Positions 33,001-48,000 of a stretch of DNA of 64,000 nucleotides are shown in pieces. Numbering within the stretch: position 1 is the first letter of the stretch; each line of letters opens with the position of its first letter. The stretch is from NCBI GenBank assembly GCA_964106645.2, contig OZ067039.1; one strand, 5' to 3'. The DNA comes from Podarcis pityusensis. Taxonomy: Eukaryota. A program made the position numbers.

Positions 33001-36000
33001 GGATTTGGTTCTGAGTTGCATATGAAGATTAAATATTATCTTAAGAGCCTCCCTTCCCCACTCAGTGTGGAGAAGTGAAAATGGAAAAAAGAGGATATGT
33101 TAAATGGAGCACATGGCAGCAACATTTCACATGTGAGAACATGCTTCAAAAGCATTATTTATTATAACAAAATTTGAAAAACAGTACATATCTCAAAATA
33201 TAAAGATACCTGAAGGAAAATGCATCATACACAAAAAAATTAGATTGATATACATTACCTTAGAATTTATTATTTCAATGATTTATACACTCATTTTAAA
33301 AAAGCAAAAAACAAAAACACCTGCTGTTCTTTTGCTCTAGTATATGACATTATTATTATTATTAAGCTACTATCTATCTTTGCCCCAAAGAATCCAATAT
33401 AAAAGGAGTTCTTGGAAATTGTCATTCAGTCTGTCTAATAAAAGTGAGCAGACTGCTTCTGTATCGTCATTAAAATTAAACCTTTCAAACATCTAAGTAG
33501 AACAGTTTTCAGAGCAAATGACAAAAGCAGAGGTTGGGAAGATGTGGCCTCCCAACTCCCATCAGCCCCAACAACATGGCCAGTGGTCATGGTTGTAGGA
33601 GATGGAGTCCAACAACAAGTTGGAGGGTCACAGGTTTCTCATCCCTGTGGTAAAATAATATATTTTTTATTATCACCAGAAAGCCTTAGAGACATACATT
33701 GGTTTTAGCTCAGGGGTCAGCAAGGTTTACCTCGCCTGGGTCAGTTCACTCCAGTGGAGATCCCTCCGTGGGCCAGATAACGTGCATGCCCACAGTTTTC
33801 AGCGTCTCCACATGCACAGACGCGATTTTTGGCGCCGCGGAAGTGAGTCACCACGCTGTGCCGGTTTAGCACAGCATGCGGGGGCTTGCCAAGCAGGCAG
33901 CTCAGTTCAGGGGCAGCTCGTGGGCTGGTTAAACGACCCCTGTGGGCTGCTTGTGGCTCATGGGCCTTAGGTTGCCGACCCCTGTTTTAGCTGGTATTTC
34001 ATCTTATTAAAAAACTTTTCATATACAGTGATACCTCGGGTTAAGCACTTAATTTGTTCTGGAGGTCCGTTTTTAACCTGAAACTGTTCTTAACCTGAGA
34101 CACCACTTTAGCTAATGGGGCCTCCCACTGCCGCCGTGCCATTTCTGTTCTCATCCTGAAGCAAAGTTCTTAACCTGAGGTAATATCTCTGGGTTAGCGG
34201 AGTCTGTAACCTGAAGGGTCTGTAACCCGAGGTACCACTGTACTATAGCTACTACATCAGTTTATTCACATTTTTATCCCATTTCCCCCCCCATCTTATT
34301 TATAGTTGGTTGGGACTATTTCCCTTTGTTCGTATTGTTCACTAGAAAGTCTAGTGCCAAAAGTCTTGCATTAGTGAACAGTTTCCAAAATGTGTGAAAA
34401 TGTTCTGCTCCTGACATCTCCAGATACCACCTTGTGTCATTTCTTTCGCTACCAGTTGTCATGCCCAGTGCTGTGGAGATGAATGTCAGCCTGAAATATT
34501 GCATCTCATTGGCGCTATCAGGAGTTTTGAAAGCCCCAGACTTCTAGAAGCTGCACCTGGAAGTTTTCTTGGCAGAGAGGAGGGTTGTCAAATGTTTCGC
34601 AGTGCTCCGTTCTCCCATGATGCAGATCAGCGTCAATAAACAGAGCTTGGCCTCCTCCACCACCTGGGGGGAAACGAACAGAGATTTGTTATGGGCTGTT
34701 GCTGGCTATGAAAAGCAAACTGAAATGCTGTCCTCTGTTGTATGATCAGTAGCAGATTTCATTGCTGTGAAGTTAAATCTGAAACACTCTGATTGGAGGA
34801 CAGCAGCATATGCAGGGGCACAGAAAAGAAATGTGTGTACGGTATATCGGCCCCAAATTTTGTATTTTGCAAAACTAGTTCCTTTTCATTATAGAGTTAC
34901 TCTGTGAACAAACCACCTGCTGAAACATAGTAACAACCATTCAAATGACTTCATCTAAATAATTGAACTGGTGAAAGACAGCAAAGGGATTAATCTTGCA
35001 TTTCCAAAGACTAAACCTGACCTAAATTTCAACACGGTTTGCAAGGAGCTCCAAAATAAGCTTTTAAACTGGAAAGGCATATGCCTATCTTACGCCAAAG
35101 TACTTGGGAATATTTTCTGTGCTAATGTGATCATGTAGCCTCCTAGTGGCTGTCATCAGTAGCCATAGTTTTCTCAAGCTGCGTGTGCTGCTAGGTTGCT
35201 CACGTATAGCACAGCACCCCTGCATTATATATGAGCACAAAGGTCTCTCAGTTTAGATTAATGCCTTATTCTGCATGCAAACAGTGTAGACCGTAGGTGT
35301 ATATTGCTGCATGCTGCATGCAAGCAGTCAGGCCTCACTGAACCATCACTGGTAGGCTGTCAAGTTGATATTATTTGTGCTACCTTACATAGAGCTGTAC
35401 CTGATACCAGTGCAAGGCTTCTCATCACTCAGTTCCTCTATGAAATGTTTTGGTTTATCCTTTACCCCTAACAGCAGGGATGCGGGATCTGTTGCTAAAC
35501 TGCAACTCCCATCAGACCCAACCAGCATGGTCAATGTTTAGGTGTTTGTGCAGGATAGGTCACATGGCACATTCAGTTCTACCCCAACAACACCATGCCA
35601 CTGCTGCCTTCCTTCCCTGCCAGCAACTGCCGCTTGAGGCAGCTTCCCCACTCTAACGATAGGGCCAGTCCTGGGCACCAGAAATGTCTGTGGCACTACG
35701 GTCTCTGTGACAGCTATAGTGTCATAGTAGAAGCATAGCTACCTATGATGATCTCTTTCTGAGTTCCAGACATGAACATGGAGGCTGTTTTGGAAGGCAG
35801 CTTGAAGTGTCGAATTGCCAGGAATGGAGAGAGGCGGTATTTAATCATGTCCAGCACTGGCACAGTGAGGTGGTTTGAGCTGGTTGTTGAGTGACCCTCG
35901 GATGAGAAGGGAGACGGAGAGCGCGGGCGTGGGGATCGAGGCAGAGCTTTAGCTTGTTCCGGCTTCTTGATGAACACCCACTCGTATCGCTCCATTTCTG

Positions 36001-45000: not shown

Positions 45001-48000
45001 GCCCTCAGAGCGTGACTTCCTGCCCAGCGCCCCTCCCTCCCCAGTTTTTTGAGCTCCTTCATAGACTTGCCAAACAGGTGCTCCTGACTGTCCTGCTGTT
45101 CGTTCAGCTTGGGCATCTTGTTCTGGTCCACAAATTTGCTACAGCGTAAGCAGGAGGCTGCGTCCATGTCCATCGCAACCACCAAAGGGATTTGCAAGGA
45201 GGCCTTAGATAGATCGGTGGTCTCTGTGGAGCAAAAGCACCATGGTTCAGCATGATTCACATCTCACCATTGGGCAGATTGCTTAAACTGTTCCTGACAA
45301 CCATGGGTGAAAAGCACTGGGATTTTATCCGGTCTCTTGGGAGTTGCAACCACAGACAATTCCCACTTAAAATTTAAACACAAGCACCGGTCATAGTTAT
45401 CACTTGTCACCTCACAGGCTTTCATTTAGTCTTCTAGGTATTTGGGGATGCTTCCATCTCTCATGTAAATCAAAGCTATTTGCTCATCATTAGTTATAAA
45501 GGTAGAACAACAAAACATTTAAATGTGAGTAAGCATAGAACATAGGGACGTGGGTGGCGCTGTGGGTTAAACCACAGAGCCTAGGGCTTGCCGATCAGAA
45601 GGTCGGCGGTTCGAATCCCCGCGGCGGGGTGAGCTCCCATTGCTCTGTTCCAGCTCCTGCCAACCTAACAGTTCGAAAGCACATCAGAGGGCAAGTAGAT
45701 AAATAGGTACTGCTGTGGCGGGAAGGTAAACGGCGTTTCCGTGTGCTGCTCTGGTTTGCCAGAAGCGGCTTAGTCATGCTGGCCACATGACCCGGAAGCT
45801 GTACGCCGGCTCCCTCGGCCAATAAAGCCAGATGAGCGCCACAACCCCAGAGTCGGTCACGACTGGACCTAATGGTCAGGGGTCCCTTTACCTTTACCTT
45901 TAAGCATAGAGCAAGGGTGGTGGACCTCAGGCCTGGTGGGCTGAATGTGGCCCTTCAAGTCTCTCTGTCTGGTCCTTGGGACTCTCTCAAAGCCATACCC
46001 ACCATTAGCCTTGCTTCCCACCCTCCTTGAGTGTTTTTGCCAGGCTGGAACGTGTCTTTTAACTCTTTACTTCCTTGGGTGGAGCAGAGATAAAGGGTGT
46101 GAGAGTGTGTGTAGAAACTAGCCTACTGTCCAAGGGTAAAACTTCCATTCATTGCCCCACCCATGTTTGCCTCTGGCCTTGCTCAGCAATGGCACGCGGC
46201 CCCCAGAAGGTAATGTGGCCCTTGGGCTGAAAAGGGGTTTCCAATCCCTGGCACAGAGAATGTAGATCCATATACACATTATGCAACATATAAACATAGG
46301 CTTGTTGGTTAGGAAATCAAAATCATTAGGCATTGTTAGAATGAATAAATGGTATTCTAAAACTGATTTATAAACCACACTTTATCTTAAAGTGGTACGA
46401 AAAGGCAAAAGGAACTATTTGCATAGCAACAGGATTTTCAAAGTGCATTTTCCCAGACTGTATTTGGAGCCTAAAATCACCCAAGTAGGGAGTTCGGGAA
46501 CCTAGGAAGTATTCCATAGGCTTCCTCCAGAAAGCTTCAACTCCATTTAGATCTGAAATCAGAATCTCCTAATGTGAAATTGTTGGCATGGGCAAAAGGG
46601 TATCCACCTGCTTGATGATATGGGCCGTTCAATGTTCTAGAGGCAGACTTTTGAAAAGCCAATCAAGGAGCGAATAATATCATGCAATCTGAGCCAGGCA
46701 ACTGCATCTTCTTCAAGTAACAAGGTAGATTATCATTTAAATGAGAGAGAGGTGGGGACAGGCAGGCAGGCAGGCAGGCAATTAATAACCACTTCCTGGG
46801 AAGGCCTCCTCAGGAGAAAAGAGATGCCATGCCTGCAGCTGCAGATGACAGCCATAAAATAAACAGATGGGTTACTTTGCTGATTCTCCCCATGATGGAG
46901 TTTAGGGCTTTCTAAAATTGAAGATAGAACGTAAAACCAGTGAAACGTTAGAAATCATGGTGAATATAGGTCACATTAATCACAGTGTGTTTAATACTTA
47001 ATTGATCCTGCTTCCTGATCTGCTAAAACATAAGTAATAAAATAAAATTTAGGTTGGAATGCCCCATGCAATGTATTGTTAAATAATGTATACAGCTTTC
47101 TGTGTCTGTTAGCTATCAGGGTTGTCAAACTTTTTGTTTGCCTGGGTATCTTGCTGTAGATATCTGGATTGTGAAACATTGCAGTTAGAGCAAGGAGGCT
47201 ACTTTTATAGCGTTGCAGTATTTATGTGATGTGTGTGAATGCAATGATGTAAGAACATAAGAGCCCTGCCAGTTCAGGCCAATGGCCCATCTAGTCCAGC
47301 ATGCTGTTTTTACAGTGGCCAACCAGATGTCTGTGGGAAGCTAAACACAAGACCTAAATGCAGCAGCACTCTCCCCTCCTATGGTTTCAAGTAACTAGTA
47401 TTCAGAAGCATACAATGAAAGCATATCCTAGTCACAGTGGCTAGTAACTTTATGTTCCATCAATTTATCTAATCCTCTTTTTATTTCCATCTAAGTTGAT
47501 GACCATCTACATCCCAACACTGCTTCCCATGGGTGTTTATTCCATAATTTAACCATGTTCTTCTAGATTCAGGTACGTAGCCGTGTTGGTCAGATGCTGT
47601 TAAAATAATTTTTTTAAAAAAAATGTCCAGTAGCACCTTAGAGACCAACTAAATTTGTTCTGGGTACAGTGGTACCTCAGGTTAAGAACTTAGTTCATTC
47701 TGGAGGTCTGTTCTTAACCTGAAACTGTTCTTAACCTGAGGTACCACTTTAGCTAATGGGGCCTCCCGCTGCCACCATGCCACCACCGTGCAATTCCTGT
47801 TCTCATCCTGAAGCAAAGTTCTTAACCAGAGGTACTATTTCTGGGTTAGCAGAGTCTGTAACCTGAAGCGTCTGTAACCCGAGGTACCACGGTATAAGCT
47901 TTTGTGTGCATGCACACTTCTTCATATACCTTAGAGACCAACTAAGTTTGTTCTGGGTATAAGCTTTCGTGTGTATGCACACTTCTTCAGATAACTATGT

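What the first reader, a model, noticed from the sequence alone, without database searches (positions are those of the whole stretch)
34518..45223. Intact, divergent TBC1D24 paralog at a locus where I recall no such gene in human
Seen: six exons splice into an open frame of 570 aa from ATG 45173, with TBC and TLDc domains and 159/64/96-nt exons matching recalled TBC1D24 structure. Established, from recall: human TBC1D24 is on chr16 next to ATP6V0C, not next to CFAP52/STX8; it binds phosphoinositides through a cationic pocket (K36, R40, K238, R242, R293) and is an epilepsy/deafness gene. The equivalent basic residues are retained here (ELKKLGR, EGQKVLYR, RLFSRK), as is the TLDc glutamate (LLEVWGF). 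No SVSLSK microexon was found. Inference: an old, probably uncharacterised paralog lost in the mammalian lineage, likely still a lipid-binding, V-ATPase-associated trafficking protein.
Basis: partly seen in the sequence, partly recalled or inferred. Interest (0 to 1): 0.7.

Follow-up and report, generated by a model that had tools for sequence, protein, structure and literature searches.

The report
Second TBC1D24-like gene beside CFAP52
The window holds an intact six-exon gene for a second TBC1D24-type trafficking protein between CFAP52 and STX8; bird genome annotations already list a gene there as TBC1D24L, but nobody has studied what it does.

Summary
On the minus strand, six GT-AG exons (45173-34518) add up to 1713 nt, which is 570 codons plus TGA. 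No exon has an internal stop. Searched exon by exon, exon 1 is a RabGAP-TBC domain (Pfam 1.9e-23). Exons 2, 4 and 6 match the TLDc domain, and every exon that hits a solved structure hits Drosophila Skywalker, the fly TBC1D24, first. The five basic residues of the Skywalker lipid pocket and the conserved TLDc glutamate are retained, and the catalytic glutamine finger is missing, as in Skywalker. CFAP52 lies downstream on the same strand. A candidate STX8 first exon lies upstream.

The gene is not new to annotation. Chicken papers list TBC1D24L on chr18 in a candidate-gene list with CFAP52 and USP43, and TBC1D24 on chr14 in a run-of-homozygosity interval with ATP6V0C. That favours a paralog over a translocated ortholog. 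Lipid and V-ATPase binding are inferences.

The parts
44191..45173 (-). Exon 1 of the TBC1D24-like gene: ATG at 45173, 983 nt, 327 codons plus 2 nt. It holds the whole TBC domain and the five basic pocket residues K42, R46, K244, R248 and R299.
   Evidence: Searches give the sequence, frame and donor AG|GTACAA. Pfam RabGAP-TBC 1.9e-23; best solved structure is Skywalker 5hjn/5hjq at 3.4e-27; the next is TBC1D14 at 2.1e-6.
43068..43226 (-). Exon 2, 159 nt: linker and start of the TLDc domain (residues 329-380).
   Evidence: TLD 0.0041, below the cut-off; the only PDB hit is the Skywalker TLDc domain 6r82 at 1.5e-5.
39535..39598 (-). Exon 3, 64 nt (residues 382-402). Its donor falls at coding nt 1206.
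   Evidence: No Pfam hit and no PDB hit, as expected for 21 aa. The exon is placed by frame, by its splice sites and by the human exon 5 donor at c.1206 (PMC7598720).
37883..37978 (-). Exon 4, 96 nt (residues 403-434): TLDc core.
   Evidence: TLD 0.027; the only PDB hit is Skywalker TLDc 6r82 at 0.017.
35743..36007 (-). Exon 5, 265 nt (residues 435-522). It contains a Ser/Pro/Thr-rich stretch with 4 S/T-P motifs, probably a loop.
   Evidence: 55% S+P+T in exon residues 20-50. No relevant Pfam hit and no PDB hit. The exon is placed by frame and splice sites only.
34518..34663 (-). Exon 6, 146 nt including TGA 34520-34518 (residues 524-570): C-terminal TLDc strands with the conserved glutamate E563.
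   Evidence: TLD 1e-9, 39.0 bits, above the cut-off of 24.5. Skywalker TLDc 3.4e-11, then NCOA7 about 1e-9. The Glu aligns with residue 216 of NCOA7-B chain 7uzj_T.
3245..17901 (-). The 5' half of CFAP52, downstream neighbour on the same strand. Residues 22-91 are encoded near 16.0-16.2 kb and residues 284-341 near 3.25-3.42 kb. A candidate first exon lies in the ORF 17599-17901.
   Evidence: 4.5e-33 to CFAP52 chains; 1.7e-22. Further WD-like exon ORFs are visible. WD40-type Pfam matches for 14987-15169.
61105..61121 (+). Candidate first coding exon of STX8, head to head with the TBC1D24-like gene: gccgccATGg, five codons plus TG, then the donor GTAAAT.
   Evidence: One search gives the sequence. 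One search shows a CpG-rich island at 60.5-61.5 kb (observed/expected up to 1.02). The STX8 name rests on my recall of its N-terminus, and the piece is too short for any search.

Best explanation
This is an intact, probably expressed second member of the TBC1D24/Skywalker family. It is most likely the counterpart of the gene that bird annotations call TBC1D24L, and it lies between CFAP52 and STX8.

Shown here: a 570-codon, six-exon open frame; an N-terminal TBC domain followed by a C-terminal TLDc domain; both domains closest to Skywalker among solved structures; exon junctions at the same coding positions as human TBC1D24 (c.965 after an 18-nt N-terminal offset, and c.1206), so it is a DNA-level duplicate and not a retrocopy.

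Inferred mechanism, about 0.55 likely:
- The TBC domain is not a canonical dual-finger RabGAP, because its Y-x-Q glutamine is a proline.
- It instead anchors the protein to PI(4,5)P2/PI(3,4,5)P3-rich membranes through the retained basic pocket (K42, R46, K244, R248, R299).
- The TLDc domain docks on the V1 sector of the V-ATPase and tunes organelle acidification, as reported for TBC1D24.

Inferred origin, about 0.5 likely: a vertebrate whole-genome-duplication partner of TBC1D24 that mammals lost.
For: Gene model. Domains.

Family: E1 matches Skywalker at 3.4e-27 against 2.1e-6 for the next TBC protein. E2 and E4 hit only the Skywalker TLDc domain. E6 hits it first.

Pocket: the five basic residues are identical to Skywalker at the aligned positions, chain indices 98, 102, 300, 304 and 358. 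PMC7015432 (passages) says that R40C, R242C and R293P disrupt the pocket.

Collinearity with human TBC1D24, checked without using its sequence: I tested 13 human positions named in the papers at fixed offsets (+6 in E1, 0 in E2). Nine carry the same residue here: R40, D70, P135, E153, R242, F251, R293, R360, G376. Four do not: D11, S178, R214, H336.

Splice positions: the human exon 2 donor is at c.965+1 and the exon 5 donor at c.1206+5 (PMC7598720). Here the donors are at coding nt 983 (965 plus 18) and 1206.

Glutamine finger: Y-C-P aligned to the Y-C-Q of RABGAP1L. TLDc glutamate: aligned to E216 of NCOA7-B (PMC4742741).

Paralog status: chicken TBC1D24L is listed with CFAP52 and USP43 on chr18, and chicken TBC1D24 with ATP6V0C on chr14.

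Expression of a gene with this name in birds: barn owl feathers. [quoted passage not shown]

TBC1D24 binds V1 subunits A and B2 (PMC11699390).
Against: I found no direct evidence that this genome also has a TBC1D24 beside ATP6V0C.

I made no sequence comparison with chicken TBC1D24L, so the equation with it rests on the neighbourhood and the name only. The chicken table lists genes around a marker and does not give their order.

Four of the 13 human positions tested differ, including the DFNA65 site S178 (Ala here) and R214 (Val here).

E3 and E5 have no database support of their own.

There are no expression data for this organism. No promoter or 5' UTR exon was defined, and the CpG signal at exon 1 is weak (observed/expected 0.3-0.6).

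The structure model failed (pLDDT 36), so the pocket geometry is untested.

The native Skywalker residue numbers and the list of five pocket residues come from recall, because the primary paper is not held.
Confidence: 0.78

Rival explanations
1. It is this organism's only TBC1D24, moved from the ATP6V0C neighbourhood to the CFAP52-STX8 interval. That would make it a translocated ortholog and not a paralog.
For: The protein is fully collinear with human TBC1D24 in the residues and splice positions tested. No second copy could be looked for in this genome.
Against: Chicken papers list two separate genes: TBC1D24 with ATP6V0C on chr14 and TBC1D24L with CFAP52 and USP43 on chr18. A gene of this family beside CFAP52 is therefore a distinct locus in at least one other species.
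Confidence: 0.07
2. It is a young, lineage-restricted segmental duplicate, possibly decaying or silent, and not an ancient whole-genome-duplication partner.
For: The duplication could not be dated. The TBC1D24 micro-exon is absent. Three SINE copies and a tRNA-like element sit in and around the gene. The promoter CpG signal is weak.
Against: All 570 codons are open (P about 4e-13 by chance) and all splice sites are canonical. The functional residues are kept. If it equals bird TBC1D24L, as its position beside CFAP52 suggests, it predates the split of this lineage from birds, and genes of that name are detected in expression studies. NDE1 and MYH11 in human 16p13.11, on the same chromosome arm as TBC1D24, are classed as whole-genome-duplication ohnologs (PMC3630198). 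By my recall their partners NDEL1 and MYH10 lie in 17p13.1 near STX8 and CFAP52.
Confidence: 0.1
3. It is a real, expressed paralog that has changed function. It may no longer bind phosphoinositides or the V-ATPase in the TBC1D24 manner, for example because it has a different partner or tissue role.
For: There are substitutions at four human disease positions (D11, S178, R214, H336). It has a distinct Ser/Pro-rich loop in E5 with 4 S/T-P motifs and no micro-exon. The bird mentions come from feather and intestine, not brain. A review says that TLDc paralogs differ strongly in their effect on the pump (PMC13570293).
Against: The pocket residues (5 of 5) and the TLDc glutamate are retained. The review describes the TLDc domain as a general V-ATPase interaction module.
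Confidence: 0.2

Closest known systems
Vertebrate TBC1D24 (human 16p13.3, chicken chr14 beside ATP6V0C)
   Same: Same TBC-then-TLDc architecture. Same splice positions where they could be checked (c.965 equivalent and c.1206). Nine of 13 named human positions carry the same residue at fixed offsets, including the pocket arginines R40, R242 and R293. The glutamine finger is absent here, and TBC1D24 is described as lacking the arginine finger (PMC7015432).
   Different: A different locus (CFAP52/STX8, not ATP6V0C). Six extra N-terminal residues. No micro-exon found. Substitutions at D11, S178, R214 and H336. A Ser/Pro-rich loop in exon 5. No direct sequence alignment with any vertebrate TBC1D24 could be made here.
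Chicken and barn owl TBC1D24L (annotated gene, LOC104369395 in barn owl)
   Same: The name implies a TBC1D24-like product. In chicken it is listed in the same chr18 candidate-gene list as CFAP52 and USP43, which matches the neighbour seen here.
   Different: Known to me only as a gene symbol in two gene lists. No sequence, gene order or function was available, so identity with the window's gene is inferred and not tested.
Drosophila Skywalker (PDB 5hjn/5hjq TBC domain, 6r82 TLDc domain)
   Same: It is the best solved-structure match for E1, E2, E4 and E6. All five aligned basic pocket residues are identical. Both have Y-x-P in place of Y-x-Q. Both have the C-terminal L-E-V-x-G-F.
   Different: About 85 of 288 aligned residues are identical in the TBC domain (my count from the printed alignment). 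The loop lengths differ. Skywalker is the single invertebrate gene, not a vertebrate paralog.
NCOA7 / OXR1 / mEAK7 TLDc domains
   Same: Exon 6 aligns with NCOA7 at about 1e-9, with zebrafish 4acj at 4e-9 and with mEAK7 at 0.013-0.015. The conserved glutamate is shared. Several of the matching NCOA7 and mEAK7 chains carry late chain letters (T, U, W), as in large complexes; I take these for V-ATPase complexes from recall, since the table names only the matched chain.
   Different: Those proteins lack a TBC domain. E2 and E4 hit only Skywalker and none of them.

Membership tests
TBC1D24/Skywalker family | One polypeptide with an N-terminal TBC domain followed by a C-terminal TLDc domain | tested here: met
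   TBC in E1; TLD in E6 (above the cut-off) and in E2 and E4 (below it). The exons are in order on one strand with matching phases. The joined protein itself was not searched.
TBC1D24/Skywalker family | Both domains closer to Skywalker/TBC1D24 than to other TBC or TLDc proteins | tested here: met
   Against solved structures only. E1: 3.4e-27 against 2.1e-6 for the next hit. E2 and E4: Skywalker is the only hit. E6: Skywalker first at 3.4e-11, NCOA7 at 9e-10. No vertebrate TBC1D24 chain was among the hits, so that comparison was not possible.
TBC1D24/Skywalker family | Cationic phosphoinositide pocket (five basic residues; human R40, R242 and R293 are mutated in disease) | tested here: met
   K42, R46, K244, R248 and R299 are identical to Skywalker at the aligned positions. 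R46, R248 and R299 sit at human R40, R242 and R293 plus 6 (PMC7015432). This is residue identity only. Geometry and binding were not tested, and the full list of five comes from recall.
TBC1D24/Skywalker family | Non-canonical TBC domain lacking the catalytic fingers | tested here: inconclusive
   The glutamine finger is clearly absent: Y-C-P against the Y-C-Q of RABGAP1L. For the arginine finger, no tool alignment covers the motif, because the Pfam match starts at profile position 65. By eye the I-x-x-D-x-x-R site reads V79..D82..S85.
TBC1D24/Skywalker family | Exon-intron structure shared with human TBC1D24 | tested here: met
The donors are at coding nt 983 (965 plus an 18-nt N-terminal offset) and 1206. 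The human donors are at c.965+1 and c.1206+5 (PMC7598720).
TBC1D24 proper (the ortholog) | Conserved neighbourhood with ATP6V0C and AMDHD2 | tested here: not met
   The neighbours are CFAP52 and a candidate STX8 exon. Chicken TBC1D24 is listed in the same chr14 run-of-homozygosity interval as ATP6V0C and AMDHD2.
TBC1D24 proper (the ortholog) | Alternatively spliced neuronal micro-exon between the TBC and TLDc exons | tested here: inconclusive
   The scan of intron 1 gave 23 AG..GT in-frame candidates of 6-39 nt, about the number chance gives. The two 18-nt candidates have weak pyrimidine tracts (0.35 and 0.45) and lie in a tRNA-like repeat.
TBC1D24L (bird annotation) | Lies beside CFAP52 and USP43 | tested here: met
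   CFAP52 lies 16.6 kb downstream on the same strand. USP43 would lie outside the window.
TBC1D24L (bird annotation) | Sequence orthology to chicken or barn owl TBC1D24L | not testable with these tools
TLDc domain proteins | TLD profile match and the conserved C-terminal glutamate (Glu-216 of Ncoa7-B) | tested here: met
   E6 scores 39.0 bits against a cut-off of 24.5. E563 aligns with residue 216 of chain 7uzj_T. The importance of this glutamate is described in PMC4742741.
TLDc domain proteins | Binding to the V-ATPase V1 sector | not testable with these tools
   The TLDc domain is spread over five exons, and the joined step was left out, so no complex prediction was sent.

The most novel reading that the evidence does not exclude
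TBC1D24L is an ancient vertebrate whole-genome-duplication partner of the epilepsy and deafness gene TBC1D24. It was retained beside CFAP52/STX8 in sauropsids, and perhaps in other non-mammals, and was lost in mammals. It acts as a second phosphoinositide-anchored V-ATPase regulator, perhaps mainly outside the nervous system. If so, non-mammalian disease models of TBC1D24 carry a hidden back-up gene that mammals lack.
Probability: 0.4. Interest if true: 0.45.

Novelty: already known. Interest (0 to 1): 0.3.

Why it matters
TBC1D24 is a major epilepsy, DOORS-syndrome and deafness gene. It is modelled in mouse, fly and zebrafish, and authors have invoked paralog compensation to explain missing phenotypes (PMC7598720). 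Zebrafish tbc1d24 knockouts show no hearing defect (PMC11915512).

A second, intact family member in non-mammals would be a natural candidate for such compensation. It would also be a natural experiment on which TBC1D24 residues are indispensable. It keeps the lipid pocket and the TLDc glutamate, but it differs at S178 and R214, two sites where human variants are linked to deafness.

The gene is already in bird annotations, so its existence is not the news. What is new is that nobody has described its history or function. My searches found the symbol only in two gene lists. Of the 41 papers holding both TBC1D24 and 'paralog', none of the 25 listed titles concerns a second vertebrate TBC1D24-type gene. 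None of the 15 listed papers mentions TBC1D24 at all.

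Tried and rejected
- **Structure of exon 1.** A single-sequence AlphaFold2 run gave mean pLDDT 36.0 and pTM 0.21, with all 327 residues below 50. The model is useless, so I sent no fold search.
- **ESM Atlas with exon 1.** It returned only generic RabGAP-TBC clusters (scores 0.94-0.95). 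This says nothing about paralog versus ortholog.
- **PDB searches with E3 and E5.** No hits.
- **Micro-exon scan of intron 1.** Nothing convincing.
- **ARAGORN.** It found no tRNA, while Rfam gave one tRNA-like match in intron 1. I take that match for a SINE head.
- **Fischer et al. 2016, the Skywalker pocket paper.** It is not held. The pocket facts come from papers that cite it and from recall.
- **Complex prediction with V-ATPase subunits.** Not sent. The TLDc domain spans five exons and the joined protein was not to be made.
The open collections hold only prokaryotes, phages, plasmids and E. coli, so I did not use them.
- **Paper supplements** were closed. An ortholog alignment figure cited in PMC7015432 (S6 Fig) and published ohnolog tables might bear on the paralog question.
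- **Retrocopy origin.** Rejected, because the introns are in place.

Full report
**What is in the sequence.** The window has no N. On the minus strand I read six exons from the sequence and recomputed them:

| Exon | Coordinates | Length (nt) | Note |
|---|---|---|---|
| E1 | 45173-44191 | 983 | ATG at 45173 in a good context, gcgATGg |
| E2 | 43226-43068 | 159 | |
| E3 | 39598-39535 | 64 | |
| E4 | 37978-37883 | 96 | |
| E5 | 36007-35743 | 265 | |
| E6 | 34663-34518 | 146 | ends in TGA |

All five introns are GT-AG. The exon-end phases (2, 2, 0, 0, 1) fit one another, and the three split codons begin AG, AG and G, so none can be a stop. Stop codons make up 4.88% of all codons on this strand, so 327 open codons in E1 have a chance probability of 7.8e-8. 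The stop-free stretch that holds E1 is the longest in any frame of the window.

**How the model was searched.** The joined protein was never assembled, searched or folded. As a result the TLDc domain, which is spread over five exons, could be tested only in pieces. No whole-protein score, fold or complex prediction exists for it.

**Domain identity.**
- Pfam: E1 is a RabGAP-TBC domain (1.9e-23, 83.7 bits). E6 matches TLD above the curated cut-off (1e-9, 39.0 bits against 24.5). E2 (0.0041) and E4 (0.027) match the same profile in the expected order (profile positions 2-43, 67-91 and 121-170) but below the cut-off. E3 (21 aa) and E5 have no relevant match.
- Solved structures: E1 matches the TBC domain of Drosophila Skywalker (5hjn/5hjq) at 3.4e-27. 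The next protein is TBC1D14 at 2.1e-6 (7 sequences matched).
- E2 matches only the Skywalker TLDc domain 6r82 (1.5e-5, 1 of 1 hits). E4 also matches only 6r82 (0.017, 1 of 1).
- E6 matches 6r82 first (3.4e-11), then NCOA7 (about 1e-9), zebrafish 4acj (4e-9), mEAK7 (0.013-0.015) and yeast Oxr1 (0.08), 10 sequences in all.
- E3 and E5 gave nothing.

Both halves therefore belong to the Skywalker/TBC1D24 lineage and not to another TBC or TLDc family. No vertebrate TBC1D24 chain was among the hits, so the closest available yardstick is the fly protein. About 85 of 288 aligned residues are identical in the TBC domain, by my count from the printed alignment.

**Functional residues.**
- In the Skywalker alignment, the residues K42, R46, K244, R248 and R299 are identical to Skywalker chain positions 98, 102, 300, 304 and 358. 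By my recall of the primary paper, which is not held, these are the five residues of the phosphoinositide pocket.
- Papers I could read confirm that the TBC domain has a cationic pocket for PI(4,5)P2 and PI(3,4,5)P3, and that human R40C, R242C and R293P disrupt it (PMC7015432 passages; PMC5614904 passages).
- The canonical glutamine finger is absent. Y-C-P here aligns with the Y-C-Q of RABGAP1L, and Skywalker also has a proline there.
- No tool alignment covers the arginine-finger motif. By eye it reads V79..D82..S85. TBC1D24 is described as lacking that finger.
- In E6, the glutamate of the L-L-E-V-W-G-F motif aligns with residue 216 of the NCOA7-B chain 7uzj_T. This is the Glu-216 that PMC4742741 (passages) describes as conserved in all TLDc proteins and needed for function.

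**Collinearity with human TBC1D24, checked without its sequence.** I took human residue numbers from papers and looked at fixed offsets: +6 in E1 and 0 in E2.

| Result | Human positions |
|---|---|
| Same residue here (9 of 13) | R40, D70, P135, E153, R242, F251, R293, R360, G376 |
| Different here (4 of 13) | D11 (Gln at +6, with an Asp next to it), S178 (Ala), R214 (Val), H336 (Asn) |

The offset returns from +6 to 0 across the E1/E2 junction, which is what the absence of the six-residue micro-exon would produce.

The splice positions agree. PMC7598720 (passages) places the human exon 2 donor at c.965+1 and the exon 5 donor at c.1206+5, with a micro exon 3 between them. Here the donors lie at coding nt 983 (965 plus the 18-nt N-terminal offset) and 1206.

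A scan of intron 1 for an in-frame micro-exon gave 23 AG..GT candidates, about what chance gives, and none is convincing. The conserved introns exclude a retrocopy.

**Neighbourhood.**
- Downstream on the same strand lies CFAP52. The ORF at 15910-16287 matches CFAP52 residues 22-91 at 4.5e-33. The ORF at 3245-3454 matches residues 284-341 at 1.7e-22. A candidate first exon lies near 17.6-17.9 kb. The gap to the TBC1D24-like stop codon is about 16.6 kb and holds transposon remains, including a reverse-transcriptase ORF.
- Upstream, 15.9 kb from the ATG and on the opposite strand, a CpG-rich island contains gccgccATGg followed by five codons and the donor GTAAAT. By my recall the encoded start is the N-terminus of STX8. 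Six residues cannot be tested, so this name is provisional.
- I do not take the window for human. It has this extra gene, a reverse-transcriptase ORF of a LINE type and tRNA-derived SINEs. Its CFAP52 exons also differ from all the CFAP52 chains they matched; by my recall the top four of those chains are mammalian.

**Is it known?** The symbol TBC1D24L occurs in two papers out of about 8.4 million searched.
- In a chicken GWAS table it is listed for chr18 near 3.17 Mb together with CFAP52 and USP43 (PMC12193209).
- In barn owl it appears as LOC104369395/TBC1D24L in a feather co-expression table (PMC11799826).
[quoted passage not shown] I cannot show that this is the same gene.
- Chicken TBC1D24 itself is listed on chr14, 13.7-14.7 Mb, with ATP6V0C and AMDHD2 (PMC13735278).

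Chicken papers therefore list two such genes, and the one listed with CFAP52 is named as the 'like' copy. That is the strongest evidence I have that the window's gene is a paralog and not a moved ortholog.

Reviews of mammalian TLDc proteins list OXR1, NCOA7, TBC1D24, TLDC1 and TLDC2, with IFI44 as a remote member. This fits the absence of a second TBC-TLDc gene in mouse and human, though those papers did not set out to test it.

No paper describing the evolutionary history or function of TBC1D24L turned up.

**Age of the duplication.** This could not be tested. PMC3630198 (passages) classes NDE1 and MYH11 in human 16p13.11 as whole-genome-duplication ohnologs. By my recall their partners NDEL1 and MYH10 lie in 17p13.1, close to STX8 and CFAP52, while TBC1D24 lies in 16p13.3. 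A TBC1D24 partner in the 17p13-equivalent region would fit that paralogy. I put an ancient origin with loss in mammals at about 0.4-0.5.

**Likely mechanism.**
- Shown: the architecture, the family, the retained pocket residues, the retained TLDc glutamate and the missing glutamine finger.
- Inferred: the protein is recruited to membranes rich in PI(4,5)P2 through the TBC pocket and does not act as a canonical RabGAP. Its TLDc domain binds the V1 sector of the V-ATPase.
- The second inference rests on what is reported for TBC1D24. TBC1D24 pulls down V1 subunits A and B2, and its loss shifts V1 to the cytosol (PMC11699390). [quoted passage not shown]
- The Ser/Pro-rich loop in E5 has 4 S/T-P motifs and may be a regulatory phosphorylation site. 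That is speculation.

**What failed or stayed open.**
- The single-sequence structure model was useless (pLDDT 36).
- The ESM Atlas gave only generic TBC clusters.
- Paper supplements were closed.

**Verdict.** This is a real, intact gene of the TBC1D24 family at the stated coordinates. It is very probably the counterpart of the annotated but unstudied bird gene TBC1D24L. The novelty is low, because the gene is already annotated. Interest is low to moderate.

Noticed in passing
window 19016-20059 (+): A 348-codon open stretch with a reverse-transcriptase domain (Pfam RVT_1 1.1e-24) lies in the gap between CFAP52 and the TBC1D24-like gene. It looks like a LINE remnant. Further LINE-like pieces lie on the minus strand at 21518-22112, one with a weak C2H2 zinc-finger match.
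   Followed up: partly
window 45530-45960, 41765-42116, 56695-57056: There are three copies of a SINE-like repeat of about 360 bp, 83-87% identical. One lies about 360 bp upstream of the ATG of exon 1, one in intron 2, and one between the gene and the STX8 island.
   Followed up: partly
window 44092-44168 (-): Rfam gives a tRNA match (33.3 bits against a gathering score of 29, E 0.0039) in intron 1, starting 23 nt after the exon 1 donor. ARAGORN calls no tRNA anywhere in the window. It is probably the tRNA-derived head of a SINE and not a gene.
   Followed up: partly
window 1096-1794 (+) and 26804-27193 (+): Two open stretches (233 and 130 codons) look related to each other by eye in their C-terminal parts. 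They have no Pfam match at E 0.01 or better. They are possibly a repeated transposon ORF.
   Followed up: no
window 60500-61500: This is the strongest CpG island of the 44-64 kb part that I profiled (GC 0.57-0.62, CpG observed/expected up to 1.02). It surrounds the candidate STX8 start codon. The TBC1D24-like exon 1 has only a weak CpG signal (0.3-0.6).
   Followed up: partly
window about 53.6-53.8 kb and about 9.2-9.4 kb: Simple repeats show up as Arg-Glu and Leu-Ser runs (a GA/TC-type dinucleotide repeat) and as Arg/His runs in the ORF listing.
   Followed up: no
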